From Schmidtea polychroa (Eukaryota), in assembly GCA_044892525.1 (NCBI GenBank), contig CM097885.1:5396001-5460000 (forward strand): a stretch of 64,000 bases of DNA, given 5' to 3'. Made by a program: the position numbers and the translations under genes. Shown here in pieces: positions 32,361-56,593 of the stretch; position 1 is the stretch's first letter, and every line of letters begins with the position of its first letter. Below the pieces are notes generated by a model, which worked only from the letters and a program-made list of their open reading frames with translations, searched no databases and had not been told where the DNA came from.

Positions 32361-32714
32361 AAGTAATCAATGGTAAAAAATTTTAAATAAGTAAATTAAA
32401 GTAATAATTTTTAAATTAAGTAATCAATGGTAAAAAATTTTAAATAAGTAAATTAAAGTAAGATTTTAAAAATTTAATTACAAAAAGTTGAAGGTGTTTG
32501 AGAATTGAAATTTTTTAATGAAAATTTTTATGAAATATTTTTCAATGGTAATTTTTTATGGAAATTTTTATGAAATATTTTTCAATGGTAATTTTTAATG
32601 AAAATTTTTATGAAATATTTTTCAATGATAATTTTAGATGGAAATTTTTAAGATAACTTTTAATGAAAATTTTTATGAAATATTTTTCAAAGACAAATTT
32701 TAATAATAATTCAA

Positions 32715-34312: not shown

Positions 34313-34343
<31 letters not shown>

Positions 34344-34761
34344 TCAACAGTTACCAACAATCGGTTACTAAATATTTTTAACTAGGTGCTAACAAATACT
34401 TACAACATGATACCACGTACTAACTAACTCTCAAACAACCAGATACTTACAACTAACTACTAAATATTCTTCACTGTATTTTATGAAATGCTTTTTAAAT
34501 TAATTTTTTATCTATCTACAAAAATATATTTAATTACAATCATTAGAAAAACCTTTTCAAATTTAACAAAAATGTTGATTTTCATCAAAAAACCACAACT
34601 CATCACCACGTGAAATTCAAAATAATTTAAATTACAATGAAAGACTAATGAATTCTAATTTACAAAACATTCTTCTTTTAAATGATAACTACTGACTTAT
34701 TATTGCAATGTAAAAATTGCATTCAATAAATACTTATTGTTGATCAGTTTTATTATATATA

Positions 34762-37700: not shown

Positions 37701-37865
37701 AAAAATTATCAATGAATGCCTTATACAAATTTGCCTAAATAATCATTCAAATAAAAACATTAAATACCTTTACAACTAATACCCTTGCGACATGTTGAAT
37801 GTGAGTAGTACCCTTGTGAGCAATACCCATAGGGGGACAGAATATTTTGTCGGATAAACTCAGAG
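34762..37865. mobile_element. TA-flanked non-autonomous TIR element nested in the arm of B (mirror at 39979-43082)
   Basis: 18-bp perfect TIR ctctgagtttatccgaca / tgtcggataaactcagag, flanked by TA on both sides, with subterminal 15-bp repeats (gggtactggtcgtaa). Confidence 0.65.
37420..37680 (+). repeat. 19-bp tandem repeat (aaattcacaaaaataatag); mirror at about 40165-40425
   Basis: About 13 tandem units. Confidence 0.9.
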
Positions 37866-40800
37866 TATATATTAATTAACTCATTTTTCATTGAATTAGT
37901 CAAATTATCATAAATTTCGATAAAAAATCTAAAGTGGTAAGCAATGTAAAGAGAAATATTCTTTAAACTTTGATAAAATTAACAATGAAGGTGGTAAGAA
38001 TCTTCATTAAAGTGAGGAAATTACTCGATGATAAATTCAAATGGGTGAAAATAATTGGTAGAATAATTCATTAATGGAGGTAAATAATGAGAAGTGGCAT
38101 AGATAAGAAGAAGGTTGATAAAAATGTAAATATATTAATTGAATTTATTTAAAATTATTTCATAAAATTCATAAATTTAATAAAAAAAACTTTTAAAACA
38201 AATATTTGTGGGGAATAATTAATCAAAATCGGGGGGATATTAGTGATTAATTAATGGAAAATAGAGAATCGGGGAATATAAGTGAATAATTAATGGAAAT
38301 TCTAGGGAATACAAATGATTAAATAGTGGAAATCGGGGGAATATAGGAGATTAAATAGTGGGATAATGAGAATCGGTGGAATATAAGTGAGAAGGATATG
38401 TAATTTAAACTATTTTATTACATAACAAGCCGTGACTAGTTTATTACATAACAAGCTGTGAATAGTATTTTATTGAAAATTATTGATTAGGTCTTTTTTT
38501 TTTAATTTTTGAATAGGTACTTTAATACCTTAATAATTTAAATGTTTTGATTTACACTAATTAATTTCTAAATCAATTACCATTTTCAATCAATATAAGT
38601 TAATATTCAAATATAAGTCTTCGAAAATATAAATTTTATAAGTAAAGCTTTTTTAAATAAATTTAAATAAGAAATTAATTTATTACCAGTTATATACTTT
38701 AAAACTTTTTTATGTAATAAGACAAAAATTTTGTTGTATAAGTCCTTTAATATTGTAATAATTATTTATTAATAAATTTATTATTCTACACTAAATATTT
38801 CAAAAACAATTATCATATTATTAATTATATTACTCCTTTCAATAAAAATAAGATAAATATTCAAATAAATGACTTATAAAATACAATTAAAATTAAATTC
38901 TTTACACGAAATTTAAAAATATAAATTTTATAAGAAAATGTGAATAAGAAATTGATTTATTAACAGTTATAGACTTCTTAAACTTAATGATGAAATTAGG
39001 TAATAGAAAGTAATTTTTCTTTTTAAAAAGTCCTTTAATATTGTATTCTATTCATTATTAAATTTACTATTTTACACTAAAATATTTTAATTTAGAAAAA
39101 AAAAATCATCATAATATTGAATATAATACTTCAATCAAAATAAGTAAATACTCAAATATATGTCTTATAAAATACAATCAAAATTTAATATTTCACTAAA
39201 TTTTAAGTAAAGTTTTTTAAATTCTCAAATAAATGTTAACACGATATTAATTTATTAATCATTATATACTTTTTAAACTTATTATTGGAATAAAACAATA
39301 GAATGATATTGAAAATATATACAATTTAAAAATACAATAAAAATTAAATTACATACTAGGTAAAATGTTGGTAAAATCCCGTTCACAGCTTGTTATGTAA
39401 TAAACTAGTCACGGCTTGTTATGTAATAAAATAGTTTAAATTACATATCCTTCTCACTTATATTCCACCGATTCTCATTATCCCACTATTTAATCTCCTA
39501 TATTCCCCCGATTTCCACTATTTAATCATTTGTATTCCCTAGAATTTCCATTAATTATTCACTTATATTCCCCGATTCTCTATTTTCCATTAATTAATCA
39601 CTAATATCCCCCCGATTTTGATTAATTATTCCCCACAAATATTTGTTTTAAAAGTTTTTTTTATTAAATTTATGAATTTTATGAAATAATTTTAAATAAA
39701 TTCAATTAATATATTTACATTTTTATCAACCTTCTTCTTATCTATGCCACTTCTCATTATTTACCTCCATTAATGAATTATTCTACCAATTATTTTCACC
39801 CATTTGAATTTATCATCGAGTAATTTCCTCACTTTAATGAAGATTCTTACCACCTTCATTGTTAATTTTATCAAAGTTTAAAGAATATTTCTCTTTACAT
39901 TGCTTACCACTTTAGATTTTTTATCGAAATTTATGATAATTTGACTAATTCAATGAAAAATGAGTTAATTAATATATACTCTGAGTTTATCCGACAAAAT
40001 ATTCTGTCCCCCTATGGGTATTGCTCACAAGGGTACTACTCACATTCAACATGTCGCAAGGGTATTAGTTGTAAAGGTATTTAATGTTTTTATTTGAATG
40101 ATTATTTAGGCAAATTTGTATAAGGCATTCATTGATAATTTTTAGAGTTGATGGTTTTATTCAAGTAAATTTCTATCTTTTTTGTGAATTTCTATCATTT
40201 TTATGAATTTCTATCATTTTTATGAATTTCTATCATTCTTGTGAATTTCTATTATTCTTGTGGATTTTTATCATTCTTGTGAATTTCTATCATTCTTGTG
40301 AATTTTTATCGTTTTTTGTGAATTTTTATCAATTTTGTGAATTTCTATTATTTTTGTGAATTTCTATTATTTTTGTGAATTTCTATTATTTTTGTGAATT
40401 TTTATCGTTTTTTGTGAATTTCATGTTTATTGAATGAATATTTAAAGTTAGTTCTATGATAAATTTAATTAATTTCTTGATAATTAGTTGTATTTTATTG
40501 AATAGTTTTTAAATAAAAATTAATTTCATTGACAATTAGGTTAATAATTAAGTGATTTTTGATGATAACTTTGTAATGTATTTGACTAAATAATGTTTTC
40601 AATATTTTTCTAAGAATATTTACTCATTGATGAACTTTAAAAAACATGAGCTAAGAAACCAGTTAACTTACTTGAAAATGATTGGTTGAATCGATGAAGA
40701 ATTATGATCAATCAATATATATCATCTCCAGTATTTGATGGTAAATATTTGTAGAAAATATTGATTTTTGATCTTTTAGTGAACTCTTACTACATAGCTA

Positions 40801-43500
40801 CTAAATTATTTCAATGGAAGAATATTTGGTGTCTATAACAATTAAGTCATATTTTTGAAGTTCTTTAAAGATTTTAAGACTGAATTGAATTAAAGGAGGA
40901 TTCAAGTGGGTAGAATTGAAGGATATATTCGGTTAGATGTTTAAAAGGGTAGAAATATTTGCTGAGAGATTGGATAAGATGGGATATTGTCGGTTATTAA
41001 ATTTAATGAGGGATGGGTTAAGATGGGAATATACGATTTTTAAAGGGATATAGTCGGTTAGATTTAATGAGAGATCGGTTAAGATGGGATATTGTTGGTT
41101 AGATTTAATGAGAGGTCGGTTAAGATGGGGAAAATATGATCTTTTAAGGGGATATAGTCGGTTAGATTTAATGTGAGATGGGTTAAGATGGGAATATATT
41201 ATTGTGAGGGAGATATAGTCGGTTGCTTTTAATGAGGGAAGGGTTTCGATGGGAATATATGATTTTTTAAGGGTGATGTTGGTAAAATATCAATGTTTTT
41301 TAAGGAAATTGCAATACATTAGTCAGTTATGAATCAATAATAATTATATCGTTTTATTAGGTTGTGATTAATGCATAGTAAATTATTTTAGAACAATGTT
41401 TTATTAAGTAGGGATAATGATCGATTTACTTGGTTTTGACGATGAAAACTTTACAGATAATTGGGATTGATATCAACTTTAAATTATTTTTATCTTTATT
41501 TAGACGGACAACGACAAAAGTTGAGAAATATTGATTTAAAACATCGACAACTAAATAAAATTGATCTTTATTGGAAGAAATCTTGATTTTAATTAGTAAT
41601 TAAATCGGTTGAATATCGGTAAAATGATCATTTGAAGAAATATATTTTATTGAATGGATAAATTTAATCTTTCAATGGGACCTAGTCAGTTATATTTATT
41701 TTAAATTTCGAGTACAGTGATTTACAAAAATTTACAGTGATTAACAAAAATTTTATTATAACCGGTTTTGTCATTAGATTTTATAAATTCTTTAGGGTTA
41801 ATGATTTTACATGTTTTATAAGGAAATATTCGTGATAAAAAGGGATTTTAAGCAATCTTATTAGTCAGAGGTAAATATATAACCTTTTAAGGATATTTAT
41901 CGATAAAATACTAATCTTTAAAGATATAGTTATTTCAGGGAAATTTGATGCTTTTTAGATGATTTTAGTGAAATATTTGTAATAATACGAATTAAGGGTA
42001 GAAATATAGTCATTTGAGGGATTTTAAGGAATCTTGTTAGTTCGAGGTGAATATATGATCTTTAACAAGTACTTATCGATAAGATACCAATCTTTAAATA
42101 TTGATATATTTCAGGGAAAATGATTCTTTTTAGATGATTTTATTAGAGAATTCGCTTGAATATACCAATTATTTAAATGAATTTACTGGTTTGTTAGATG
42201 TTATCATTAGTTATCTAGTCTCTTTTGGAATTTAATGATAATTATTTTTATTGTAGATTGCTGACTTTGATAATTTTAATGAATTCATACTGATTTTTTG
42301 AATATATTGAGGAATTAGTAAATAGATTTGAGTACATGTATTACTTTTAAAAAAAATACTTAAAATTAATTTTATTTCAAATAATTTATTCAATCTAAAT
42401 CAATTATCTACTAGATCTTATCTTATTAATTTATTATCTTAGTTGATTCAACTTGAATGATCAGCATTTTTTTTTATTTATTGGATGATTAGAATTTTTT
42501 CTTGTCCATTAATTAAATTTTTATGATATTTATTTCGAATAATTTAAATTTTTTACAATAATTTAATCAATTTTTATCAAGTTATTGATGCCTTGAGTTC
42601 AATTAATTTTCCATCTAATTTTTCAAGTGATGAGTATTTGCTTTTAAAGATCAATTTGTTAGTACATAGTTGTTGGTTGTAAGTAGTTGGTTGACTTTTT
42701 AGATTTTGATAAGAAAATAGTGTATGTGATGAAGAGTATTTTGTATTTAATTGCTATTATTTTTATGTGTGGTTAGTTGATTGTTGGTACTAAGTTGTTG
42801 GTATCTTGTATATGGTAGTTGGTACAGTGTTGTTTATTGGTTGTTGTTATATAGTTGTAGGTTGATATTTGTTAATTTCTCGATGGGTTTTGATGGTGGT
42901 TGTTAGTAGTTGGTATCAGGTAACTGGTTGTTAGTACTTAGTAGCTAGTTAATGGGTAGGTTGTGGTTGAGTGTTACCAATACCCCTACGACTAGTACCT
43001 TTACGACCAGTACCCTTGCGACCAGTACCCTTACGACCTGTACCCTTAGGGGGTCAAAACATCCTGTCGGATAAACTCAGAGTATATATAATAAAACTGA
43101 TCAACAATAAGTATTTATTGAATGCAATTTTTACATTGCAATAATAAGTCAGTAGTTATCATTTAAAAGAAGAATGTTTTGTAAATTAGAATTCATTAGT
43201 CTTTCATTGTAATTTAAATTATTTTGAATTTCACGTGGTGATGAGTTGTGGTTTTTTGATGAAAATCAACATTTTTGTTAAATTTGAAAAGGTTTTTCTA
43301 ATGATTGTAATTAAATATATTTTTGTAGATAGATAAAAAATTAATTTAAAAAGCATTTCATAAAATACAGTGAAGAATATTTAGTAGTTAGTTGTAAGTA
43401 TCTGGTTGTTTGAGAGTTAGTTAGTACGTGGTATCATGTTGTAAGTATTTGTTAGCACCTAGTTAAAAATATTTAGTAACCGATTGTTGGTAACTGTTGA

Positions 43501-43531
<31 letters not shown>

Positions 43532-46500
43532 CTATTATTATTATTTTTATTATTATTATTATTCCATTAAAATTTCCATTAAAAATTAACTTAAAAAATA
43601 TTTCATAAAAATTTTCATTAAAAATTATCCTAAAAATTATTTCATAAAAATTTTCATTAAAAAATTTCAATTCTCAAACACCTTCTATTTTTTGTTAATA
43701 AATTTAAAAATCTTAGTTTAATTTACTTATTACATTACTTATTTAAAAATTATTACTTTAATTTATTCATTTAGCTTTAATTTAAAATTTAAACCATTGT
43801 TTCCTTTAATTTAAAATTTTGAACCTTAATTTACTTATTTAAAATTTTTAACTTTAATTTACTTATCCTTAATTTGCCTATTTATCCTTTATTACTTAAT
43901 TTTACACCATAATTTACTAAACAACTAATTATAACCCTTATTTTCATATTTAACCAATAATTTCATGTGGTCATCTGGTTGTAAGTGTTTGGTATCTAGT
44001 TGACAGTGCTTAGTACTAGGTAAGTTACTTGGTTGTTAGTACTTGGTTGATAATACTTAGTACCTGGTTGATGTTGGTTGTATGTACTTGGTAGGTGGTA
44101 GTTAGTTGTTAGTACTTAGTAGCTAGTTAATGGGTAGGTGGTTGTTGGTACTTGGTAGGTGGTAGCTAGTTGGTTGTAGGTACTTAGTAGCAGGTAACTG
44201 GTTGTTAGTAACTAGTTGTAGGTATCTGGTTGTTGGTGGTTGTTAGTACTTGGTATCTGGTAGTTGGTTGTAGGTACTTGGTAGGTGGTAGTTAGTTGTT
44301 AGCTGGTTGTTGTTGGTTGTTAGTACTTGGTAGGTGGTAGTTAGTTGTTAGTACTTGGTAGGTGGTAATTAATGCTTAGTACTTGGTTGTTGTCGGTTGT
44401 TGGTACTTAGTAGGTGGTTGTAGGTAGTTAGTAGTTGGTAACTGGTTGTAAGTATCTGGTTGTTTGAGAGTTAGTTAGTGCGTGGTATCTAGTTGTAAGT
44501 ACTTGCTATCAGGTAACTAGTTTTTAGTAACTAGTTGTAGGTAATTAATGCTTAGTAGTTGGTAACTGGTTGTTAGTACTTGGTATCTAGTACCTAGTTA
44601 GCTGGTTGTAGCTAGTTAATTGGTAGGTGGTAGCTAGTTGGTTGAAGGTACTTGGTATCTAGTTGATGATGCTTGGTACCTAGTTGGTTGCTTGTTTTTG
44701 GTTGTTAGTACTTGGTAGTTGGTTGGTTGCTGTTAACTGGTTGTAGCTAGTTAATGGGTAGGTGGTTGTAGGTACTTAGTAGTTGGTAATTAATGCTTAG
44801 TACCTGGTTGATGTTGGTTGCAAGTACTTGGTATCTAGTACCTAGTTGGTTGGTTATATGTACTTTGTAGGTGGTTGTAGGTGCTTAGTAGTTGGTAACT
44901 GGTTGTTAGTACTTGGTATCAGGTACCTAGTTAGCTGGTTGTAGCTAGTTAATGGGTAGGTGGTAATTGGTTGTAAGTATCTGGTTGTTTGAGAGTTAGT
45001 TAGTACGTGGTATCTAGTTGTAAGTACTTGGTAGCAGGTAACTAGTTGTTAGTAACTAGTTGTAGGTATCTGGTTGTAACTACATGTTCGTAAGTTACTG
45101 GTTGTTGGTACTAAGTTGTTGGTTTGTTGTTGAATTATTATTAAAATTTGTCTTTGAAAAATATTTCATAAAAATTTTCATTAAAAGTTATCTTAAAAAT
45201 TTCCATCTAAAATTATCATTGAAAAATATTTCATAAAAATTTTCATTAAAAATTACCATTGAAAAATATTTCATAAAAATTTCCATAAAAAATTACCATT
45301 GAAAAATATTTCATAAAAATTTTCATTAAAAAATTTCAATTCTCAAACACCTTCAACTTTTTGTAATTAAATTTTTAAAATCTTACTTTAATTTACTTAT
45401 TTAAAATTTTTTACCATTGATTACTTAATTTAAAAATTATTACTTTAATTTACTTATTTAAAATTTTTTACCATTGATTACTTAATTTTAAAATTTGGAC
45501 CATAATTTACTTTTAATTTAATTTTTTAGGACCATAATTTACTTTAATTTAATTTTTAGAACCATAATTTACTGTAATTTAATTTTTAGACCATAATTTA
45601 CTGTAATTTCAATTTTTAGACCATAATTTACTGTAATTTCAATTTTTAGAACCATAATTTACTTTAATTCAATTTTTAGAACTATTATTTACTGTAATTG
45701 AAAAATTTGAGCCATAATTTACTTTAATTTAATTTTTTAGGACCATAATTAACTGTAATAGAAAAATTTGGACCATAATTTACTGTAATTTAATTTTTTA
45801 GGACCATTATTTACTTTAATTGAAAAATCTGGACCATAATTTACTGTAATTTAATATTTTAGAACCATAATTTACTTTAATTTAATTTTTAGAACCATTA
45901 TTTACTGTAATTCAATTTTTAGAACCATTATTTACTGTAATTGAAAAATTTGAGCCATAATTTACTTTAATTTAATTTTTAGAACCATAATTTACTTTAA
46001 TTTAAAAATTTGGACCATAATTTACTGTAATTTAAAAATTTGAGCCATAATTTACTGTAATTTAATTTTTTAGAACCATAATTTACTGTAATTTAATTTT
46101 TAGAACCATTATTTACTGTAATTTAATTTTTTAGAACTATTATTTACTTTAATTGAAAAATTTACCACGTTTTTTAGTGTAGACCACATATTTCTCAGGA
46201 CCAAGGAGACTCACCTCACTATAGTCTGAAAAATCCTTGGCTTTTTTAGTGTAGACCAGATTTTTGTTTTGAAAATATCATGAGACCTTAAATTACCATG
46301 CTTTTTTAGTGTAGACCAGCTTTTTGTATTGAAAATATCCTGAGACCTTAAATTACCACGTTTTTTTAATGTAGACCACCTATTTCTCAGGACCAAGGAG
46401 ACTCACCTCACTATAGTCTGAAAAATCTTTGGCTTTTTTAGTGGTAGTCGGATTTTTGTATTGAAAAAAATTTTTTGTATTGAAAATCCCAGGACCATCG

Positions 46501-46660
46501 AGACCCCCTCACTATAGTGTGATAAAAAAAAATTTGGACTAAAATTCCCTGAAAGCAAAAAAATGAGTTGGGAACAATTGCGTAATAAAAATTTGGGAAC
46601 AAACCCCCCTCCCCCCCCCGGGGGGGGGTAATTGTTCCCGTGGGCTACTATCTACTTACT

Positions 46661-47281
46661 TACGAAACATTTAGAAACCCTGAATTTATAACTAGATCAT
46701 TTATATTTAAAACTCCAGAAACAGAAGAAACCATTACACATAGATATCCTATATTTCCTAAAGAAGAAAAACCTGTAAAGGATAACAGATGTAAAGGAAT
46801 ACAGAGAGTGGTTGCAAAGAATCTTTCTCATCAAGATTATATAGATACATTGAATCCAAATCATAAAGATAAAATTGATGAAATACATCAACTTAAAAGT
46901 GAAAACCATGATATTCACTTGATAGAATCTCAAAAAGTATCATTATCAAATTATGATGATAAGAGATTCATCCTAAGTGATTTAAAGACAACTCTACCTA
47001 TTGGAAATAATTTAATCCCTATAATAAAAAATCTAGAAAAGTTGAATAAGTTATATGATACAAAGATTACTGATCTTGATATTTATAATGTTGAAATTAT
47101 TTATCCCGAGAGAGAACCCAAGAGAGAAATCGAGAAGCCTTTATATTCTCAAGTTTTTAATCCTATATGTTTAGAACTTAAATATTTTAATACTGATTCT
47201 GAATATATAAAAGGTCTAAGTGATAAAGAATTTAAAGATCATAAATTAATGATTCATAGGTTGGCTTTCAACCATAACTGA
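46661..47281 (+). pseudogene. polB: pPolB C-terminal part, separated from the 5' part by element B
   Basis: YETFRNPE...KGIQRVVAKNLSHQDYIDTL...KVSLSNYDDKRFI, typical of the Polinton pPolB C-terminus; in frame across the TSD. Confidence 0.92.
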
Positions 47282-47393
47282 AACCAACGATATTTAATTT
47301 TTTAATAATAAAATGTCGACAATTTATTTAAGCAACTATAGCAACCTGATCTACTTTTTTTTAAAAATGCATCCATTTTATATATTTATAATT

Positions 47394-47987
47394 TTAAGAA
47401 TTCTTTAACCATTTCTCTCGTTTAATTTTTTTATTAGTTATAACATTAGCACTTTTCAATCTATTAATATTATTTTTAATATCTTGTATTATTTGATTTG
47501 ATTTCATTATTTCATCATCAGTTAAGATTCCATCTTCCAAAGCTTTTAATTGAAATAAAAATAATTTAGAGATTCCTAATTCTATTGATAAACAAACTTC
47601 ACGATATAAACTTTTCTTTTTAGAAGTATAAGATAGTGAAACTATTTCAGTTAGGAAACCATCAGCTACTGAAATACTTCCAAGTATTACAGGTGCAATT
47701 GTTAAAACTGGTAAAGTTATAGGTAAAATAACTGTTAATATTGCAGATGCAAATCCTAAAGAATAACCTATAACTTTTAAAACTGTATTCCCTTTATTCC
47801 ATCTATTTTTAATTTTTTTATAATGCTTTAATAAATCTTGTAAATGTAAGGTTTCTGATTTAAATTCTTTTACTCTCATAATTTCAAGTTCTGTGGGAGC
47901 TGAAGGTCCCGAAGGTCCCGAAGGTTTGGGGGAATAATATCCTGATGACAATTCTGGGTAAACTTTTTCTTCACTTACTTCTTCCAT
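47394..47987 (-). CDS. Polinton membrane protein (hydrophobic hairpin, KALEDGILTDDE motif) with N-terminal YPEL and PSAP motifs, 197 aa
   Basis: Central hydrophobic stretch VIGYSLGFASAILTVILPITLPVLTIAPVILGSISV; located in the Polinton gene block. Confidence 0.75.
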   Translation of the reverse strand: MEEVSEEKVYPELSSGYYSPKPSGPSGPSAPTELEIMRVKEFKSETLHLQDLLKHYKKIKNRWNKGNTVLKVIGYSLGFASAILTVILPITLPVLTIAPVILGSISVADGFLTEIVSLSYTSKKKSLYREVCLSIELGISKLFLFQLKALEDGILTDDEIMKSNQIIQDIKNNINRLKSANVITNKKIKREKWLKNS

Positions 47988-47995
47988 TTTAATAA

Positions 47996-49006
47996 TTAAA
48001 AAAATAAGATTTTATTCTTCTGAGCACCATCTGGCACCAATACTCGGATATCAAAAGAAACTCTTGTTGAGAGAATATCTTTATACAATTCCATCAATGC
48101 TTTACGAACTTCATCAACATCAACCTTTTTTTCATAAAATATTAAATCTATATAATCCACAAGTGTGCTTTTAAAAATAATATTCTTACTTTTAACTTTA
48201 TGTAGTCCATGTGAATGAGTATTAACATACCAATCTCCGTGTGGTAAATCATAACTAGTCATTATAACATCACCCTTTTCAAGCTTACTATTATAATCAC
48301 ATTTCACAAACCATTTCATTCTTTCATTATTATCATCAAACAAAAAGAAATAAGGATCAATAATTTTTACAACCATAAAAACACCCCATTCTTTACTGTT
48401 TGTTGTTATTAAACTTGGTTCTATAAAATGTTTATATGTATGGGGTAATAATGTTTTATTCTGTTCTAATTCAGCAGCTCTTTTTCTAATACTATGTGTG
48501 GTGTTAATGTGTGTTCCATGAGACTCTAAATTTGAAATTCTTTTATTAAATGATGTAATCATCTCATTTATTTTATTATATATTGTATTAAATTTAGTAT
48601 TCATAATTTGTTTATCTTTAGAATTTAATATAGCAGTATTTAACTTTACAACTTGTTCAGTTAACAGACTTTGTAACTTGTCAAATTTATCATTAAATCG
48701 TTGTTCGATATTATTAAGCTTTGATTCCATTGAATCAATTTTTGTTGTTAATGAACTTTCAATTCTTGTTGTTGTTAAATCAGTATATTTTTTAACACCA
48801 TCTACATATTTCTTATTAACTGCATCAGCTTCATCAGTTGGAAAAGATAATTCTTTTATCTTGTGTCCATTTAAAATTAAATCACCCTTCATTGAATCAC
48901 CTCTTTCATTAATATATTTATTTTCTGTTAAAGTTAATATTTCTTCTGTATTAAACCCTGTTTTTATTGTTCCACCACCTCTATTACATGGAATATAAGA
49001 ACTCAT
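47996..49006 (-). CDS. Putative fiber/adhesin-like virion protein, 336 aa
   Basis: GDSMKGDLILNGHKIKELSFPTDEADAVNKKYVD resembles the neck motif of trimeric fibers and YadA-type adhesins, followed by coiled coil; adjacent to the penton gene. Confidence 0.65.
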   Translation of the reverse strand: MSSYIPCNRGGGTIKTGFNTEEILTLTENKYINERGDSMKGDLILNGHKIKELSFPTDEADAVNKKYVDGVKKYTDLTTTRIESSLTTKIDSMESKLNNIEQRFNDKFDKLQSLLTEQVVKLNTAILNSKDKQIMNTKFNTIYNKINEMITSFNKRISNLESHGTHINTTHSIRKRAAELEQNKTLLPHTYKHFIEPSLITTNSKEWGVFMVVKIIDPYFFLFDDNNERMKWFVKCDYNSKLEKGDVIMTSYDLPHGDWYVNTHSHGLHKVKSKNIIFKSTLVDYIDLIFYEKKVDVDEVRKALMELYKDILSTRVSFDIRVLVPDGAQKNKILFF

Positions 49007-49030
49007 TTATTAATAATTTAAAATGAATCT

Positions 49031-49795
49031 TCAAACCTGTTTCAAATGTAAATACATTGAAATCTCTTCTCCATTAAAATCAATCAATTCTCCTTCTTGA
49101 TTAAGAATTTTAAAATTAATATCCATTATATATTTTTTACATAAAGGTAAATAATTTGGAGGATTCATTCTTTCAACTATTTTATATCCCATAGGAACTG
49201 TGTTTGAGGGAAAGGAATATAAAACATTTGTTTGTTTACCATTATTATAAGAACCTGTTATACAATCGCAATGAATATTTATTGTGTTTGTATTTATTAT
49301 TTTTATAATATGTTCTGATGTTATTATTTTATCTTCTTTTATTGTTATATCCATAGGTTTAAATCCTAAAACTGTGTGAAAGAAACAATTATCTAAAAAA
49401 CTAATTTTTATATTCTTCAAAGTCATTACACATTTTGAAGTTGGTATATCCATTTTAATTTTAATACCTTCATTTGTTTTTTTAGAAAGTATATCATTTA
49501 AATCTTTTATCTCATATGCCCCAGGTTCTATTGTTATAATTTCTGGTTTATGCCCATCACGAGTTTGAATAGTAAATTTATTATTATCTTTAGTTATATT
49601 AAAAATAGTATTATAAGCACAAAACCATAATAGCCCCAATTCATAATTTAAATTTTGATCTAATTTAATTGAATCTTGAAAGTTTATAGTAAACTCTGAT
49701 TCTTTTGAATTTATAGATAAAGTTCTTGAATATTTATCTGACATTATGTTTACCATTTTTTTTAAATTATCTTCCGGAGGGTTGTGAAGCTCCAT
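49031..49795 (-). CDS. Minor capsid protein (penton, single jelly-roll), 254 aa
   Basis: YELGL, IxIxPGxYxIxDLN, INIHCDCITGSY...VLYSF, PxYLP and NQEGELIDFNGE motifs typical of the Polinton minor capsid protein. Confidence 0.85.
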   Translation of the reverse strand: MELHNPPEDNLKKMVNIMSDKYSRTLSINSKESEFTINFQDSIKLDQNLNYELGLLWFCAYNTIFNITKDNNKFTIQTRDGHKPEIITIEPGAYEIKDLNDILSKKTNEGIKIKMDIPTSKCVMTLKNIKISFLDNCFFHTVLGFKPMDITIKEDKIITSEHIIKIINTNTINIHCDCITGSYNNGKQTNVLYSFPSNTVPMGYKIVERMNPPNYLPLCKKYIMDINFKILNQEGELIDFNGEEISMYLHLKQV

Positions 49796-49843
49796 TTCTT
49801 TAGTAGTAAATTGATATAGTAAAAATCCTTATAGTAAAAATCC

Positions 49844-50308
49844 TTATAGTAGAGATTCTAGATCATTATAAATTTCTTGAATTATAGATTCAAAATCCTG
49901 CGTATGCCCCTTTCCCTCTCCCTTATTCAATCTATACAAAACATATAAACTTATAATACCACATATTTTAGTATTCAAAGGTTGAACTTGTAAAGAGTTA
50001 AAAGTATAACCATTTGGGGAATCAATCGGAGAACCCCTCAAGAGATAATCTTCAACTTCTTTAGTAGGTTTAATCCCAAAAGAATCAAAGTAGATAGATT
50101 TCTTATATATACAAACCCAATGAGATCCTTTTTCATTTGAATTTTGATAATTGATTATTATATTCAGGGGACTCTCCAGACTTGATAATTCATCATTCAT
50201 TAATATTTTAATTTTTAAATTTAAATAATTTGCATAATCTTTTAAATCAAAATTTGTTTTTGCATTTATTCCAAATGTTTTTAAAAAATCTAATATTGAA
50301 GGAGTCAT
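49844..50308 (-). CDS. Adenain-like cysteine maturation protease, 154 aa
   Basis: GSHWVC (His), YFDSFG (Asp) and QxQ...CG (Cys) catalytic motifs. Confidence 0.9.
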   Translation of the reverse strand: MTPSILDFLKTFGINAKTNFDLKDYANYLNLKIKILMNDELSSLESPLNIIINYQNSNEKGSHWVCIYKKSIYFDSFGIKPTKEVEDYLLRGSPIDSPNGYTFNSLQVQPLNTKICGIISLYVLYRLNKGEGKGHTQDFESIIQEIYNDLESLL

Positions 50309-50330
50309 TTTGTATTTTAAAACTTCATAT

Positions 50331-51224
50331 TTATAACTTCGTATACTTATTAAATTTATCTTTTGAAATTATTCCTTGTTTTAACAAATCTTTAGAAATC
50401 TTTAAAATATCAGAATCTAAATTATTATGTCCTGCTTTCCTTGCAGCTAATAGTTTTCTTAATTCAATAAAAAGATTGATGGGATTTGGTTTACCACCTT
50501 CACTAATTAATCCCTCTCCCTCTGTAACAACATAACCCTTTTCATTTTTATTTAAATAATTCTTTAAATCTTGAATATATTTTGCTTTAGAACTAGCTCT
50601 TATTAATCTTATTAAATTTAAATATTTTTTAATTTCTTCAACATCATCTGAAGAATATCCACAAAGTAATCTATAAAAATCATCTGTAAATTCAAAGTCT
50701 AAATATTCATTATTATAAACATTTTGTGAATGAATACGTGATTTATTTTCTGAATTTGAATATAAAGTAAAGTTTTGTTTATTAATTGTTATTATTTGAT
50801 ATCCTTCAGTATTAGTATTAAATGTGGGTCTAATTGAAGGAGGTAAATCATCTCTAATTTTAGGATCAACTTTAAGAGGTTTTGTTTTTAAAAACATTTC
50901 TTCTTCTTCCACATTAGAAATTCTTCTGCGTTTTCTTTGATTTCTTTCAGAATGACTTTCAGGATGGTTTTCACTGGATTCTTTTTCTTTATCCTGCCAC
51001 TCTAGTTCTTTTATTTTTTGTTTTTTATCTTCTAACTCTTTAAATTTTGCTTGCTCATTGAAATCTTCCAACTCTTTTATAGCTTTAATTGTTGGCCCCT
51101 GTTGTTGTGTTATTACCTCATTTAATATTATAGATTCAGCATGTTGAGTTGTATCTTTTTTATTATATTTATCTTGTTCTGATTGTAATTTTTTTAAAAG
51201 TGCTAATCTTTCTTCATATACCAT
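50331..51224 (-). CDS. Polinton hypothetical protein, 297 aa (charged N-terminus, NLS-like RKRRR, C-terminal LLAARKAGHN motif)
   Basis: Long ORF with aaaATG start, tightly packed in the gene block; the C-terminal motif resembles one recurrent in Polinton ORFs. Confidence 0.7.
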   Translation of the reverse strand: MVYEERLALLKKLQSEQDKYNKKDTTQHAESIILNEVITQQQGPTIKAIKELEDFNEQAKFKELEDKKQKIKELEWQDKEKESSENHPESHSERNQRKRRRISNVEEEEMFLKTKPLKVDPKIRDDLPPSIRPTFNTNTEGYQIITINKQNFTLYSNSENKSRIHSQNVYNNEYLDFEFTDDFYRLLCGYSSDDVEEIKKYLNLIRLIRASSKAKYIQDLKNYLNKNEKGYVVTEGEGLISEGGKPNPINLFIELRKLLAARKAGHNNLDSDILKISKDLLKQGIISKDKFNKYTKL

Positions 51225-51246
51225 TTTAATGGTATCAAAAATGGTA

Positions 51247-51825
51247 TCATAGTTCGAAGGGCTTCAAGTATAATCCTTTACCATTTTTAGTTTCACAAAG
51301 GCATCCATTCTTTAAAGATTTACATATTTTTTTTAAATCTTCTTTATCTTTTGAAGATAAAGATTCAGATGTAGAAATTTGATTTTTTAAAAAATCATTT
51401 AAACCTCTACCTTTATAAGGATCAAGATAGAGACCTTTGCCCTGAGACTTTTGCCGACTCCCCTCATATGGATTAAGATAGAGACCCTTTCCAACGGACA
51501 CTCCCCCTTTAGCTTGCCCTACCTTCTTCATTGAATCGATTTCAGTTTGTAGTTTTTCTTTTTCTAGGTCTGTCTTTTGAGATTCTTTAGCTTTTTGAAC
51601 TGTAGTTGCAATTCCTCCAGCTATTCCAGCAGCACCTGATAAACCAGCAATGATTGCAGGTATTAAAGCAGCTAATGGAAGAATGCCACCTTCTTTAGCT
51701 TCGTGGAGCTTCGCTCTAACTTGTTCTTTTACATGTTTTCCAATAAAATATTTTTTACCATCAATTACTACTGATTTATTTTTATTTGAATTTATTAATT
51801 CTTGCAAAGATTCTTCAGTTGTCAT
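51247..51825 (-). CDS. Adenovirus pX/mu-like virion core protein, 192 aa
   Basis: GGILPLAALIPAIIAGLSGAAGIAGGIA resembles the adenoviral pX GGILPLLIP segment; three GKGLYLxP repeats. Confidence 0.75.
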   Translation of the reverse strand: MTTEESLQELINSNKNKSVVIDGKKYFIGKHVKEQVRAKLHEAKEGGILPLAALIPAIIAGLSGAAGIAGGIATTVQKAKESQKTDLEKEKLQTEIDSMKKVGQAKGGVSVGKGLYLNPYEGSRQKSQGKGLYLDPYKGRGLNDFLKNQISTSESLSSKDKEDLKKICKSLKNGCLCETKNGKGLYLKPFEL

Positions 51826-51840
51826 TTTATAATAAACAAA

Positions 51841-52647
51841 ATGGATGTACGAAGTCCAATAATTTGGAAACCAATTTTAAATAGACATAAGAGTAAATTT
51901 CATAATAAAGTATTTCCTGATAATTTTAGATTATTAATTGTTGGTTCTTCTGGATGTGGAAAGAATGTACTTGTTTTGAAAATGTTACTTGAAGATGATT
52001 TTTTAGATTATAATAATTTAATCTTTTATTCTACAACCATAAATCAACCAGAATTACAACTTTCGAAATGTGGATTTGAAAATAAATTAACTAAAAAAGC
52101 AATAATTGATATTTTTAAAAATCAACATAGGTGTCCTGAAGAAGTTTTTCAACCTTGTGATATGGTTGATTGGTATAAGGAAAAGATTTTAGAATCAGAT
52201 ATTAGTAATAAAAATGATTATATTTGTGAAGAAGGGCAGGAGGCAATTCAAGTTTTATTCTCTAATAAACCTGAAGATGTTTTACATTGTGATTTACTTC
52301 CTAAAGATAAAAAGAATCTAGTTATATTTGATGATGTTGTTAATATGAAAAATCAAGAGATTCAAAAGAGTTACTTTACACGAGGTCGACATAATAATTG
52401 TAATGTTATTTATATATCTCAAACATATTATGCTTTAGATAAAAATTCAATAAGAAATAATTCCAATTGTTTTATATTTTTTAAATTAGATCGCCGTGAT
52501 AAGAATATGATTTATAATGATTTATTTTCAAATGTTGAACCTGATAAGAATATGTTTGATATGTTTGTTGATAATCATTGGAAAGAAAAATATAATTATA
52601 TTTATTTGGATAGAGAAGAAGCTGAAATATGGAAAAGTTTGTTTTAG
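51841..52647 (+). CDS. A32/FtsK-like genome packaging ATPase
   Basis: Walker A GSSGCGKN, Walker B LVIFDD, RGRH arginine-finger motif and IYISQ; likely ATG at 51841. Confidence 0.9.
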   Translation: MDVRSPIIWKPILNRHKSKFHNKVFPDNFRLLIVGSSGCGKNVLVLKMLLEDDFLDYNNLIFYSTTINQPELQLSKCGFENKLTKKAIIDIFKNQHRCPEEVFQPCDMVDWYKEKILESDISNKNDYICEEGQEAIQVLFSNKPEDVLHCDLLPKDKKNLVIFDDVVNMKNQEIQKSYFTRGRHNNCNVIYISQTYYALDKNSIRNNSNCFIFFKLDRRDKNMIYNDLFSNVEPDKNMFDMFVDNHWKEKYNYIYLDREEAEIWKSLF

Positions 52648-52658
52648 GGCTTGTCGAC

Positions 52659-54049
52659 TTAAAAATCTGTTTTCTGTAGTTCATTATTATAAAATCTACC
52701 TAATATTTTTTCATTATTTAAATCAAAGATGCTATATGTTATTGGAGTTGTATAATGTATTTTATTTATAATAAAAATTTCATTTGTCCATTTTGCTGTG
52801 AATCCTTTTTCAAATTTATTTTTATATTTAAATATTCTTACTCGGTCACCAATTTTAAACTTTGGTTTTTCAATAACATCATTTTCAATATTTACCACTT
52901 TAATGGTTTCAGGCTTCATGGAAGCATTTAAAGGTGTTAATTTTATAGAACTATGTACATCATTATTATATTCATTTACAATCTTTTGTAACAATTCATT
53001 GTTCCATTTTTGTTTTCCAATAGCAGTAAAATATTTCCACATTTTATTTTTTAATGTTCTATTTAATCTTTCAACTACGACTGCTTTTCCTTCGTTTTCT
53101 GTTGAATATAATTTAATATCATTTTCATTTAAAAACTTTGTAAAAACTTTGTTATAAAATTCTGTTCCTTTATCACACCATAAATATTTTGGGATTCTTT
53201 GATTTTCTTCAAATATATTTTCAAATGCTTCTGTAATAGAATATCCTGTTTTATTTTCTAAACATCTTGCAAAAGCAAATCTTGTATATAAATCTATTAC
53301 AGTTAAAATTATTTTATATTTTTCAGGGTCTGATGATTTGGGCATAAAGACTAAATCTGCAGACCATGTTTGATCTTTTTCATGTACTTGAACTTTTAAA
53401 TATTTTTTATTTTTTCTAAATTCATGGTGTAATTCTTTTGCATATTTTATTTCTGATTCTGTTGGGGTTTGTAAACTAGTCTTGGCTGTACTCTCGAGGG
53501 ATCTTTCAATCTCTGCTTGTTCGATAATCTTTTTATAAGCAACATCTTTTGCTTTCCTAGGAAGTCTTGCACCCATGGTGATCGGACTGTGTCCTAAGCC
53601 TATGAAAATCTTACCTTTCATTGCTAATTTAACTAGAGCTCTTTGAATCTTTTCTTGGGTTGATGGATTTTGGATACTATTTAAATCATGTATTAAATTC
53701 ACATCTGCAACATGTCTATCTCTAAGATTTGTTGAATTGTATGCAATGTCATGTTTTAAAGCTGCTTGATCAATTCTATTTATTGGTTCTTCTCCTTGTT
53801 TGGGATTATTATTTTCATCTAATCTAATATCTAGACGTGTTCCTGGTCCAGTATAGTTGTGTTTAAATAAATGTCTTTCACCTGGATATTTTTCTGTAGT
53901 AAAAGGTTTTAATATTGAAGATGTTGTTTTTGAAGATTGCAAATCGCCTCCAGCTCGTGGAATTTAGTTTTAAGATGACTTGCTTTATGATGTCTTGTAA
54001 CTTGACAATTACAACTTTCACATCTCCAATAGGATTTATTTAAAGACAT
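52659..54049 (-). CDS. Retroviral-like DDE integrase with N-terminal parvovirus-type PLA2 domain; upstream zinc-finger segment out of frame
   Basis: HNYTGPGT...DQAALKHDIAY (PLA2); WSADLV, LWCDKGTEF and VVERLNRTLK (D,D,E); C-terminal FKIGDRVRI. ATG at 54049 encodes CESC...HLKTKFH but in a different frame from ORF 53942-52659. Confidence 0.88.
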
Positions 54050-54066
54050 TTTAAAATGTTAAAATA

Positions 54067-55359
54067 TTAAGAATCTCCCCTAACATTTTCAATAATTGAA
54101 ATCTTTCCACCATATAATTTCTTTTCTATTTTCTTTTCTTCTAATATTAATGTATATACTTTAGCTTTAAAATTAGAATCCTTTGTTACATGAAGTGTAA
54201 CATCAACATTATTTATGGCTAGGCGATCATCTTGGTCTGAAACATTTATACAAAATATAGAATATAAATTTTTGAAATCTTCTAAACTTAATTGCGGTTC
54301 AACTTTGAAATCATAACATGTTTCAATATAATTTAGATATGGAAATATGTTTTCATTATTTTCAATATTAAATTCCATTCTATTTATTGGATAATAAGAA
54401 CTATTTAATTGAATTTGGATTGTTTTTAAATTATAATCTCCAATCTTTTGAATAAACAAGTTGTTATTTTTTTGGAAAGATGAATCTGTTTCTTTGAATC
54501 CAATCAAGATATATCTTGGTCGGTATGCTAAATTTGCTACCTTTATAGAATATGTTGAACCCTCTGTCATACTAAATTCACTACAGATTCTATTTAAATA
54601 ATTTACATTTATAGACTTGTTGGAATTTAATCTTTCAAGGAGTTTAATCTCAGAATGTGGGTTTAATGTCCATTCAGGTATATGTAATTCAAGTGTTGAT
54701 AATTTTAATTTAGCTTTTGTATCTACAGCTCCATAGAACAATCTTTTATCACCTTCTACTCTATTACAGATGAATTCTATAAAAACATTATGAAGTATAC
54801 GATTATAGTTTTGAAGGAATCCAAACAAGTGTTTTAATTCAAAATAACCTTCAAATTTTTTAGATTTATAAAGTTCAGCTCTTTTATGGTAACCATGGTT
54901 TACATCTAAACCATCTTTATCTAAATCCCCTTTATTAACATCAGGAATCCAACCTGTTAATTCACCATATTCGTTTTTATAATCACAACCAGTCAAAATA
55001 AAATTTAACATTGTAGAATATACTCCCGGATGCAAAACAGTTTCAATTTCTGATGATCCTAGTTTTAATCTCATGTTGGAGAATAAATTTGGAAAGAAAT
55101 TATTTTCTAGGGTTATATCTTTGTTTGCTTCAATTTCTAATTCTACTTTGTAATATAATTTGGCATTACAAATATCTATTGGGTTTGATGTTTGAAGAGA
55201 TTGAAAAACTATATCACCCCTACGATTTAAGTTTGCAATAGATCCTGAAGTTGGAGAGATTTTAAGTACATCATTTTTCTTGATTTCATGAGTAAATTCT
55301 TTATTATAATCAAGATTTAATTTATTTTTTTCTTGAATTTTAAGATTTATATTATTCAT
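54067..55359 (-). CDS. Major capsid protein (double jelly-roll, hexon-like), 430 aa
   Basis: Size and motifs NFFPNLFSNMRLKLGSSEIE, LKHLFGF, RPRYILIGF, IQLNSSYYP and YSIFCINVS typical of the Polinton major capsid protein. Confidence 0.85.
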   Translation of the reverse strand: MNNINLKIQEKNKLNLDYNKEFTHEIKKNDVLKISPTSGSIANLNRRGDIVFQSLQTSNPIDICNAKLYYKVELEIEANKDITLENNFFPNLFSNMRLKLGSSEIETVLHPGVYSTMLNFILTGCDYKNEYGELTGWIPDVNKGDLDKDGLDVNHGYHKRAELYKSKKFEGYFELKHLFGFLQNYNRILHNVFIEFICNRVEGDKRLFYGAVDTKAKLKLSTLELHIPEWTLNPHSEIKLLERLNSNKSINVNYLNRICSEFSMTEGSTYSIKVANLAYRPRYILIGFKETDSSFQKNNNLFIQKIGDYNLKTIQIQLNSSYYPINRMEFNIENNENIFPYLNYIETCYDFKVEPQLSLEDFKNLYSIFCINVSDQDDRLAINNVDVTLHVTKDSNFKAKVYTLILEEKKIEKKLYGGKISIIENVRGDS

Positions 55360-55443
55360 TTTTATATATAAAAGTTGATAAAAATAAAAGTTGAAAAAAA
55401 AATAAAAATAAAAGGGAATTCAATAAAAAAATAATTTATAAAA

Positions 55444-55692
55444 ATGATTGACTTTATTGAAAGAATGAGAAATGAATTGAATGAAGTTAAACTTAAGAGA
55501 ATGAAAAGAAGAGAAGAAGAACCATTAGAATACATTAAAGAGTTGGTGGTAGAGAATGAAAAGTATCGACATTTTTACATGAATGCAGTAGAAGTAGCTG
55601 AAAAAAGATTAGATAAACTAAAACAATTACAGGAAAGAATAAAAGAACTTGAATCGATTATTTTAAAAAATGACAAAAAATCCAAACCTTGA
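55444..55692 (+). CDS. Small charged coiled-coil protein, 82 aa
   Basis: aaaATG start, divergent from the capsid gene; heptad-like E/K/L pattern; no recognisable family. Confidence 0.55.
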   Translation: MIDFIERMRNELNEVKLKRMKRREEEPLEYIKELVVENEKYRHFYMNAVEVAEKRLDKLKQLQERIKELESIILKNDKKSKP

Positions 55693-55768
55693 TAGCGCAG
55701 TGGGCTAGACTGACACAGTGGTTCAAAATGCTAGCGGTTCAAATCACATCTGAGGTTAGTTTTTTTTT
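55686..55768 (+). ncRNA. Candidate tRNA-like Pol III small RNA (copy 1a, right)
   Basis: accttga TAGCGCAGTGG (A box, 55693-55703) ... GGTTCAAATC (B box, 55736-55745) acat ctgaggt tag, then T9; about 72-nt tRNA-like layout. Confidence 0.55.
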
Positions 55769-55933
55769 CAACATAAAATAATATAAAAAATTTGAAAATA
55801 ATATTGAAAATAGTGTGGGTATCTTATATTTATAAAGTACTTGTATATTTTATTTTATTTATTTTATTTTATTTTATTTTTTTATTAATTAATTATTTTT
55901 TAAACATAAATATGAAAAAAAAAATATTGAAAC

Positions 55934-55997
55934 GGGTGTGGTGGCGAACCGGTAATTATCGCCACCTGTCTTTCGAACACCCCCGGATCGATTCTTT
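55934..55997 (+). ncRNA. Second candidate Pol III / structured small RNA (type 2)
   Basis: A-box-like TGGCGAACCGG and B-box-like GGATCGATTC; stems GGTGGCGA/TCGCCACC and GGGTGT/ACACCC; a GC island in AT-rich context. Confidence 0.45.
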
Positions 55998-56593
55998 AAT
56001 GTGCACATTTATTTCTCGGTTGTTTTCGGACCTCTTTCGGATTCACTTTCGAATTCATTTGTACTTTCGAGCAGCACACTTAAAACGCCGATGAAATCGA
56101 CTTCGTGAGCGAGAAGCGAATAATAAGGTGTGCTGCTATTATCGAATTGATTCTGATGTATGAGTCTGGCCAGCTTGTATATTGGAAGAGAGGACAGTGA
56201 AAAAAAAAAAAAAAAAAAAAACCACTGTCCTCTCAGAGCAGTTTTACTATTTTCATAAAATTTTTTATTCTTCAAGACATCAAGATTAAGATTTCATTTA
56301 TTTTTTTTAATTAGCCAATTAGCAACTTGCTAGTTGGCATCCTCAAGTAGCCTTCTAACTTTTTCATAATACCATTTTCTTTTCTATTCTCTTTATGTTT
56401 TTAGTTTGAGGCTTTTGAGTTTGAGGCTTTAAAGATTAAAACAGTTAGAGTCATTAAGGGTGGTTGTTTTCAAAATATAGGGTTAAAATACTATAAAAGT
56501 ATAAGTTTTAGGTTGTTTTTCTAATAGCTTAAGTGATTTGGAGGCATGTTTTGTTGGGAGGGCTGTTTTGGTTGGGTATATAACCACACTACT
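55994..56593 (-). repeat. Right terminal inverted repeat of Polinton A
   Basis: Reverse complement of 22109-22772; ends ACTACT followed by the TSD ATAATT. Confidence 0.92.

What the first reader, a model, noticed from the sequence alone, without database searches (positions are those of the whole stretch)
55686..55997. Tandem pair of tRNA-like Pol III cassettes at the inner TIR end: possible VA-RNA analogues in a Polinton
Seen: a cassette of about 72 nt with a consensus A box (TAGCGCAGTGG), B box (GGTTCAAATC), tRNA-like spacing, terminal pairing and T9 terminator, but no normal cloverleaf. About 170 bp further out is a second GC-rich cassette of different sequence, with A/B-box-like motifs and two nested stems. 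Both point outward and follow a similar A-rich leader ending in aaac. Known: adenoviruses, relatives of Polintons, encode tandem Pol III VA RNAs that counter host antiviral and RNAi pathways. Inference: A encodes analogous small RNAs or TFIIIC-bound insulators. I am not aware of this being described for Polintons.
Basis: partly seen in the sequence, partly recalled or inferred. Interest (0 to 1): 0.8.

Follow-up and report, generated by a model that had tools for sequence, protein, structure and literature searches.

The report
tRNA-type promoter array in Polinton ends
A virus-like jumping element that is very abundant in an animal genome carries, just inside both ends, a row of broken tRNA-like genes whose promoter signals are preserved, some taken from the host's ribosomal-DNA spacer, which suggests that it uses the host's small-RNA transcription machinery to keep its own genes open or to make small RNAs.

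Summary
Cassette A (55686-55768) is a tRNA-length unit with A box, B box and T9; cassette B (55934-56026) has near-consensus boxes, two nested stems and only a T4. Both sit at the inner end of the terminal inverted repeat of a true Polinton (6-bp target duplication) whose family holds at least 2,249 A and 2,600 B copies. All 40 A copies fetched lay in Polinton ends, so A is not a free SINE. Against a diverged subfamily A keeps its boxes (median 0 of 20 changes) but not its interior (15 of 32) or its stems: a promoter is kept, not an RNA fold. B shows compensatory stem changes but shakier boxes. Sister elements carry two more units (G, E) taken from the host rDNA spacer. Best reading (0.45): a cis-acting Pol III/TFIIIC module back-to-back with the polymerase and capsid promoters; a VA-like trans-acting RNA is less likely (0.25) and fits B better than A. 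Transcription is untested. Five literature searches found no such report for Polintons; this scan noted Pol III-type hairpin genes in Polintons of other genomes, and the rDNA-spacer link in this one, before.

The parts
22109..56593 (.). Polinton/Maverick element, AGTAGT termini, 6-bp target-site duplication ATAATT
   Evidence: pPolB, A32-type ATPase, rve integrase and double-jelly-roll capsid hits
55662..56593 (.). right terminal inverted repeat; its inner edge coincides with the leader of cassette A
   Evidence: inverted repeats I5, I6, I10; self-BLAST
55662..55685 (+). A-rich leader of cassette A (likely TFIIIB site; inferred), kept in the diverged subfamily; also encodes the end of an 82-aa ORF
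55686..55768 (+). cassette A: tRNA-register unit, A box 55693-55703, B box 55737-55745, T9 terminator 55760-55768
55934..56026 (+). cassette B: A-box-like 55942-55952, B box 55986-55994, two nested stems, first T4 at 56023-56026
56070..56137 (+). hairpin C: 10-bp stem; the diverged subfamily has a different stem sequence that still pairs
   Evidence: (z -3.24)
56188..56234 (+). hairpin D: 12-bp stem around an A-run, with an A-T/G-C double change among copies; T4 and T6 runs follow at about 56242-56266
26753..26835 (-). left-TIR copy of cassette A, pointing outward
26530..26602 (-). second, tandem A-type cassette (A') in the left TIR; its T-run is cut off by the adjoining insertion
22778..26526 (.). 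inverted copy of flank 58116-61968 that interrupts the left TIR and replaces cassette B there
54067..55359 (-). major capsid protein gene, divergent from the right-hand cassettes
   Evidence: PF21738 E 9.4e-27
27878..30628 (+). protein-primed DNA polymerase ORF; its broken 5' region reaches back to about 26940, some 100 bp from the left cassette A and divergent from it (start inferred)
   Evidence: PF03175
52659..53621 (-). retroviral-type integrase
   Evidence: PF00665 E 4e-12
51841..52647 (+). A32-type packaging ATPase
   Evidence: PF04665 E 7.6e-09

Best explanation
The TIRs carry an array of decayed tRNA genes that is kept for its type-2 Pol III promoters and acts mainly in cis. Shown: boxes, tRNA-like spacing, leader and T-run of A are kept while its interior and stems change; units point outward and stand back-to-back with the two terminal genes (pPolB left, capsid right); A duplicates in tandem; sister elements added two more units from the host rDNA spacer in the same orientation. 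Inferred: host TFIIIC binds the boxes, TFIIIB (which contains TBP) loads on the A-rich leader, and Pol III makes a short unstructured 72-75 nt RNA ending at the T-run. Inferred: the bound complex, or the act of transcription, keeps the adjoining Pol II promoters free of nucleosomes or blocks silencing from spreading in from the ends, as B-box-bearing inverted repeats and tRNA genes do at fission-yeast heterochromatin borders. In this reading the A RNA is a by-product; B may in addition give a structured RNA.
For: Copies found by leader and tail only, not by the boxes: main family 2,249 (control 4); in the first 100 listed, counted by eye, 96 fit the A box and 99 the B box, while shared variants fall in leader, interior and tail. 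Diverged subfamily, 17 copies found the same way: 16 of 17 fit the A box, 16 of 17 the B box; cells differing from the column majority 3.0% (A box), 1.5% (B box), 12.9% (interior) over 15 distinct copies. Window A against these: median 0 of 11 and 0 of 9 differences in the boxes, 15 of 32 in the interior (Fisher p 1.4e-4 for one such pair). Structure is not kept: acceptor pairs 3-6 of 7 in 71 main-family units, 1 of 7 in 14 of 16 subfamily units, T-stem 2 of 5 in 86 of 87. T-runs of 5 or more in 71 of 71 and 14 of 16. In B the only common variant inside the B box is at its free position, while the flanks vary. 9 of 71 loci have a duplicated A. 28 loci carry a G-E module matching the rDNA spacer with fixed edges (93-96% identity for L017); in rDNA this cluster also points away from the neighbouring transcription unit, about 5.1 kb upstream of 5.8S in 8 of 8 units checked on C115. 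In 5 of 40 loci the capsid start codon lies only about 40 bp from A. PMC3778242 (passages): inverted repeats that recruit TFIIIC flank mating-type heterochromatin. PMC8532177 (passages): planarian Polintons are silenced by nuclear PIWI with H3K9me3; that this host is a planarian is inferred, not tested.
Against: No transcript, ChIP or chromatin data. The subfamily was first seen through box-containing patterns, so lineages that lost the boxes would be missed. Within the subfamily, the excess of shared interior variants is not significant (p 0.068). Leader and box-flanking positions are conserved too, so constraint is not confined to the boxes. Strong terminators are not needed by a pure TFIIIC boundary and point to real transcripts. 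G lacks the last C of the B box in 24 of 24 Polinton copies. B keeps both boxes in only 2 of 9 subfamily copies, and its B box is a palindrome that might be kept as another protein's site. About 830 bp of TIR lie outside the cassettes. Two left ends of other pPolB-bearing elements showed no cassette in 3 kb (their TIRs were not delimited), so the device is not evidently general.
Confidence: 0.45

Rival explanations
1. The cassettes are small-RNA genes whose products act in trans, like adenovirus VA RNAs or foamy-virus LTR cassettes. B would give a structured RNA of about 92 nt, or up to about 330 nt by reading through its T4 across hairpins C and D, serving as decoy or substrate for Dicer, PIWI or dsRNA sensors; A, E and G would give tRNA-sized decoys.
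For: B stems are kept by double changes: L087 has a different inner-stem sequence that still pairs, and the outer stem pairs in most subfamily copies. Hairpin C: 47 of 64 main-family copies fully paired in two versions, 15 with one G-U, 1 with an A-C; the subfamily has another sequence with 10 of 10 pairs in L086. 55933-56268 folds at z -3.73; the outward strand folds better than the other in 4 of 7 copies (z -2.5 to -3.6 against -0.4 to -0.8). B holds a GGGU/ACCC pair, a VA hallmark (PMC7589676, passages). Strong T-runs follow A, E and G. High copy number would give much RNA (inference).
Against: A has no stable or conserved fold. No match to Rfam VA, miRNA or other families at threshold. B's stems are 6-8 bp, far shorter than VA stems, and its GGGU/ACCC pair closes the 5' end rather than a central domain. 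The long fold is weak in three subfamily copies (z -0.7, -1.6, +0.9) and T4 avoidance is not significant in 6 of 7 copies (z -0.55). Double changes in DNA hairpins can arise by template switching, and copies are not independent events. No complementarity above 11 nt to the element's own coding regions.
Confidence: 0.25
2. Neutral hitchhiking: tRNA-like host fragments were copied into the TIR by template switching and spread with a successful element; apparent box conservation reflects recent amplification, TIR exchange between families and the way copies were found.
For: The TIR readily takes up and loses DNA: the window's left TIR swapped B for host flank, G-E is present in only 27-28 of 71 loci, A duplicates and collapses (L067). 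The genome is rich in such units: 68,755 matches to a generic A/B pattern against 838 in the control. Main-family copies are young, about 96-99% alike over the cassette region in the 30 best hits.
Against: Box-versus-interior contrast between subfamilies; all units share one orientation and keep terminators; A and B persist at the same place in an element whose pPolB N-terminus is only about 40% identical (L076); compensatory stem changes.
Confidence: 0.15
3. The module serves replication or integration: hairpins B-D act in the displaced single DNA strand during protein-primed replication, and TFIIIB/TFIIIC bound at both TIRs help bring the ends together or tether integrase, as yeast Ty elements use Pol III factors (recalled).
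For: The units lie in both TIRs in mirror position. Hairpin D is a perfect inverted repeat with no G-U bias (61 of 63 fully paired). The TIR's inner edge coincides with A's leader.
Against: G-E occurs on the capsid side only in the loci examined; the strand bias in folding and the G-U intermediates of hairpin C suit RNA better; the cassettes lie 600-900 bp from the terminus; nothing tested links integrase to Pol III factors.
Confidence: 0.15

Closest known systems
Adenovirus VA RNA I/II (Rfam RF00102 recalled; PMC7589676, passages)
   Same: Tandem, tRNA-type internal A/B promoters and oligo-T terminator in a pPolB-encoding DNA virus lineage; proposed tRNA origin; B holds a complementary GGGU/ACCC pair.
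   Different: VA genes are internal and single-copy and fold into terminal stem, central domain and apical stem; A has no conserved fold, B only short stems; no Rfam match; here the units sit in both TIRs and vary in number (1-4).
Helenus, Ajax and Cassandra TRIMs (PMC10886601, abstract and passages; 10.1101/2023.07.14.548913, abstract)
   Same: A mobile element keeps a tRNA- or 5S-derived sequence in its terminal repeats, conserved around the promoter boxes and unlikely to give a functional tRNA.
   Different: There the Pol III transcript is the template for reverse transcription of a short non-autonomous retroelement. A Polinton needs no RNA intermediate, and these units point outward and stop within about 75-330 nt.
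Foamy virus LTR and BLV Pol III miRNA cassettes (PMC6950176, passages)
   Same: One to several Pol III cassettes with terminators in the terminal repeat of an integrating element, number varying between lineages, some close to the Pol II start.
   Different: Those are 111-128 nt dumbbell or single pre-miRNA hairpins with validated miRNAs; A, E and G are tRNA-shaped remnants without such hairpins.
tRNA-gene and TFIIIC boundary elements, such as the inverted repeats at the fission-yeast mating-type locus (PMC3778242, passages)
   Same: B-box-bearing units in inverted repeats flanking a chromatin domain.
   Different: Those are host chromosomal elements with tested boundary function; here the function is inferred, and the units have full A boxes and terminators.
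tRNA-derived SINE heads
   Same: Decayed cloverleaf with kept A and B boxes and high copy number.
   Different: No SINE body, A-tail or target duplication around A or B; all 40 fetched A copies are inside Polinton ends.

Membership tests
Polinton/Maverick (host element) | pPolB, retroviral-type integrase, packaging ATPase and jelly-roll capsid genes | tested here: met
Polinton/Maverick (host element) | long TIRs with AGT-repeat termini and 6-bp target duplication (feature recalled) | tested here: met
   22109-56593, ATAATT on both sides
Type-2 Pol III transcription unit (cassette A) | A box and B box at tRNA-like spacing, oligo-T terminator | tested here: met
   (box consensus recalled)
Type-2 Pol III transcription unit (cassette B) | A box and B box at tRNA-like spacing, oligo-T terminator | tested here: inconclusive
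   98 and 95 of 100 main-family copies fit a relaxed A box and the B box, but 2 of 9 subfamily copies fit both; only a T4 follows
Type-2 Pol III transcription unit | Pol III/TFIIIC occupancy and a discrete transcript | not testable with these tools
   no reads were laid; no ChIP data
Adenovirus VA RNA | intragenic boxes A and B and U4 terminator | tested here: met
   features from PMC7589676
Adenovirus VA RNA | terminal stem, central domain and apical stem; match to the Rfam model | tested here: not met
   no match; A unstructured, B has short 5' stems
Adenovirus VA RNA | GGGU-ACCC pair in the central domain | tested here: not met
   absent from A; in B the pair exists but closes the 5' domain
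Adenovirus VA RNA | inhibition of PKR, Exportin-5 or Dicer | not testable with these tools
   needs bench assays
Functional tRNA gene | cloverleaf; ARAGORN or Rfam RF00005 score | tested here: not met
   A and B. E reaches 32.4 bits (cut-off 29) but its anticodon stem is broken
Free tRNA-derived SINE | dispersed copies independent of other elements, with tail and target duplication | tested here: not met
   40 of 40 fetched A copies in Polinton ends; a low-copy host master gene is not excluded
TRIMp3 (Cassandra, Helenus, Ajax) | short non-autonomous LTR element with PBS and PPT | tested here: not met
   the carrier is a protein-coding DNA element with inverted repeats
tDNA/TFIIIC boundary element | blocks the spread of heterochromatin in a B-box-dependent way | not testable with these tools
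   needs chromatin or reporter data

The most novel reading that the evidence does not exclude
This Polinton lineage has built a modular Pol III array in its ends by repeated capture of host tRNA-like genes, most recently from the rDNA spacer, and uses it both to hold its polymerase and capsid promoters open and to make, from cassette B, an abundant multi-hairpin RNA of up to about 330 nt that soaks up the host's PIWI or Dicer machinery: a convergent VA RNA in the group thought to have given rise to adenoviruses.
Probability: 0.2. Interest if true: 0.85.

Novelty: new variant of a known kind. Interest (0 to 1): 0.62.

Why it matters
How Polintons are transcribed and how they withstand host silencing is largely open. 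A conserved, expandable array of Pol III promoters in the TIRs gives a concrete, testable device in a family of over a thousand elements, where ChIP and small-RNA signals should be strong. It would extend Pol III promoter capture from retroelements and viruses to a self-synthesising DNA element, offer a model for how VA-type genes can arise from tRNA genes, and it points to a cluster of tRNA-like units in this host's rDNA spacer that I did not find described.

Tried and rejected
Free SINE or tRNA pseudogene family for A: rejected on 40 of 40 loci; these were 40 of the first 100 listed of 1,707 pattern matches, all on the first 23 Mb of C1, not a random draw. Functional tRNA: rejected. A first box-versus-interior test (p 3e-7) was set aside: most loci had been picked by a pattern holding the boxes, the leader search missed copies and counted three twice; replace it. 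The '14 of 17' B-box fit is an alignment artefact (a gap placed in the box in two rows); the listing gives 16 of 17. The box-fit counts are not used, since the search required part of the B box. Hairpin C pairing was out of register; one search is the corrected count. Parent tRNA of A: not identified; outside the boxes A' is no closer to spacer units G, E, F (22, 24, 16 of 53) than to host tRNA-Lys (21 of 53); a pattern for a host tRNA-Cys found nothing (uninformative); a likeness to tRNA-Tyr is recalled only and was not tested. A and B have no match to the rDNA-spacer or satellite stretches held. Relatives of the capsid protein in viral contigs: none, so no cross-species test was made. Sequencing runs: no RNA holder listed, which is no evidence either way; no reads were laid, so expression is open. 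Bacterial promoter/terminator scan: nothing above chance. Avoidance of T4 downstream of B: not significant in 6 of 7 copies. One paper sought by DOI was not held.

Full report
The element. The cassettes lie in a single Polinton at 22109-56593 with AGTAGT termini and the duplication ATAATT on both sides. It encodes pPolB, an A32-type ATPase, an rve integrase and a double-jelly-roll capsid protein. Its right TIR runs 55662-56593. This copy is damaged: the 5' region of pPolB is broken, a 15-kb palindrome is inserted, and the left TIR has lost B to an inverted copy of flank while carrying A twice.

The observation. A is a unit in tRNA register: 53 nt from T8 to C61, consensus boxes, 6 of 7 acceptor pairs, 2 of 5 T-stem pairs, T9. 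It is no tRNA by ARAGORN or Rfam and folds like shuffled sequence. B has a relaxed A box, a B box at the same 53-nt spacing, stems of 6 and 8 bp, and no terminator before a T4 about 30 nt past the box. Two such box pairs in 933 bp are far above chance (0.0024 expected). The box consensus used is recalled.

Not a free SINE. A family pattern matches 1,707 times (control 0). Of the first 100 listed I fetched 40; all 40 have an ORF of the window's element on the inner side, 38 have B behind them by BLAST, and the other two have a TIR end or a cut-off B. Anchors outside the boxes give 2,249 A and 2,600 B, numbers of the same order, as expected for parts of one TIR.

What is conserved. Among the first 100 box-independent A matches, 96 fit the A box and 99 the B box by eye, while shared variants crowd leader, interior and tail. 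A diverged subfamily (capsid 84-100% identical by pieces in L067, pPolB N-terminus about 40% in L076) has A and B at the same place. Its 17 A copies, retrieved by leader and tail, fit the boxes in 16 and 16 cases; the window's A differs from them at a median of 0 of 20 box positions and 15 of 32 interior positions (p 1.4e-4). Within the subfamily the contrast is 3.0% and 1.5% against 12.9% of cells, but shared variants alone do not reach significance (p 0.068), and the subfamily was first noticed through its boxes. Acceptor pairing falls to 1 of 7 in 14 of 16 subfamily units, and T-runs of five or more remain in 71 of 71 main and 14 of 16 subfamily units. For A, promoter, leader and terminator are kept and the fold is not.

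B behaves differently. In the main family 98 and 95 of the first 100 fit the relaxed A box and the B box; the common variant inside the B box is at its free position. In the subfamily only 2 of 9 keep both boxes, though ATCGATCC is in all 9. Its stems are kept by double changes (L087 inner stem; outer stem), and so are hairpins C and D further out. The outward strand of B to D folds at z -3.73 in the window and better than the other strand in 4 of 7 copies, but not in three subfamily copies. B may therefore head a structured RNA of about 92 or up to 330 nt, or the hairpins may work as DNA.

The pair is part of an array. In 71 loci the order is AB 34, GEAB 24, AAB 7, EAB 3, A 1, AABE 1, AABB 1. 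The host copy runs on beyond both edges of the Polinton module, which suggests capture from rDNA into the Polinton (inference). A and B match neither spacer nor satellite stretches held, and their parent genes are unknown.

Mechanism. All units point outward and stand back-to-back with the terminal genes; in 5 of 40 loci the capsid start codon is about 40 bp from A, so a TFIIIB complex on A's leader would overlap that promoter (inference). With kept promoters, lost folds, tandem duplication and a fresh capture in the same orientation, I rate a cis role highest (0.45): Pol III factors keep the terminal promoters open or stop silencing from spreading, as at TFIIIC-bound inverted repeats in fission yeast (PMC3778242, passages), in a host group where Polintons are PIWI targets (PMC8532177, passages). 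Rivals: trans-acting RNA, best for B (0.25); hitchhiking (0.15); replication or integration (0.15). None is tested by transcript data: no RNA holder was listed and no reads were laid.

Known systems and novelty. The unit meets the promoter features of VA RNA but fails its structure, so it is not a member. It works most like the tRNA- and 5S-derived promoters in the LTRs of Helenus and Cassandra (PMC10886601, abstract and passages; 10.1101/2023.07.14.548913, abstract) and resembles foamy-virus LTR cassettes in layout (PMC6950176, passages), but no RNA intermediate explains it here. Searches pairing Polinton, Maverick or adintovirus with Pol III, VA RNA or tRNA-like gave 6, 0, 4 and 0 papers, the listed ones general transposon reviews or a tool paper judged by title and abstract start only; a search on tRNA-like units in rDNA spacers gave 2 unrelated listings; a review of giant transposons has no mention of tRNA (PMC6431247, passages). 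Subscription papers, Repbase entries and supplements were not seen and might describe such TIR features. This scan has three unchecked notes of Pol III-type hairpin genes in Polintons of other genomes; they are leads, not support. Verdict: real, more than chance, a new variant of a known kind; interest 0.62.

Noticed in passing
L073 (G000:C1:11600-13800) and rDNA arrays on C97, C115, C202, C218, C220: The host rDNA spacer holds a cluster of decayed tRNA-like units (F, G, and up to three E) about 5 kb upstream of 5.8S, on the strand opposite to rRNA transcription; copies are 100% alike over the 341 bases searched.
   Followed up: partly
L075 (G000:C1:145500-147300): A satellite of about 1,245 bp period carries an E-like A/B-box unit with a T-run in each repeat, 84% alike to the Polinton G-E module's E part.
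   Followed up: partly
whole genome G000: A generic A-box..B-box pattern matches 68,755 times (control 838); A, B and E-type counts explain under 8,000. The rest (tRNA arrays, satellites or a SINE) was not identified.
   Followed up: no
window 31391-46526: A 15-kb, 97-99% perfect palindrome of tandem repeats is inserted in the Polinton between pPolB and the structural genes.
   Followed up: no
window 22778-26526 against 58116-61968: An inverted 3.7-kb copy of the right flank sits in the left TIR, joined at a (TA)n run on one side and at a short ATGTGCAC repeat on the other; it looks like a template switch or a second element.
   Followed up: no
window 55444-55692: An 82-aa coiled-coil-like ORF with no Pfam match ends with its stop codon inside the first bases of cassette A; present in many but not all sister elements.
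   Followed up: no
window 55970-56110: The motif TTTCG/TTCG recurs about six times downstream of B and is kept in the diverged subfamily; it may be a protein-binding repeat.
   Followed up: no
L067 2830-2900: A shortened E unit (about 18 nt lost between the boxes, both boxes and T8 kept) lies outward of hairpin D in a diverged element, with a collapsed A remnant further in.
   Followed up: partly
L065, L066, L068 (3' end of A): One A variant ends in a 5-bp hairpin with a UACG loop directly before the T-run.
   Followed up: no
L074 (G000:C1:290200-292400): An isolated F unit with about 250 bp of spacer-like flank lies beside a tandem ATGAGTCAT/ATGACCTTGA repeat, outside rDNA.
   Followed up: no
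window 16911-18530, 6148-7137, 57300-57800: Flanking host DNA holds an intronless ABC-F-type ATPase ORF, a Tc1/mariner transposase and exons that read like a cathepsin-L gene (the last recognised from memory).
   Followed up: no
L077-L080: Host tRNA-Lys and tRNA-Arg genes lie in long tandem arrays (periods of 424 and 278 bp) and end in T6-T7.
   Followed up: no
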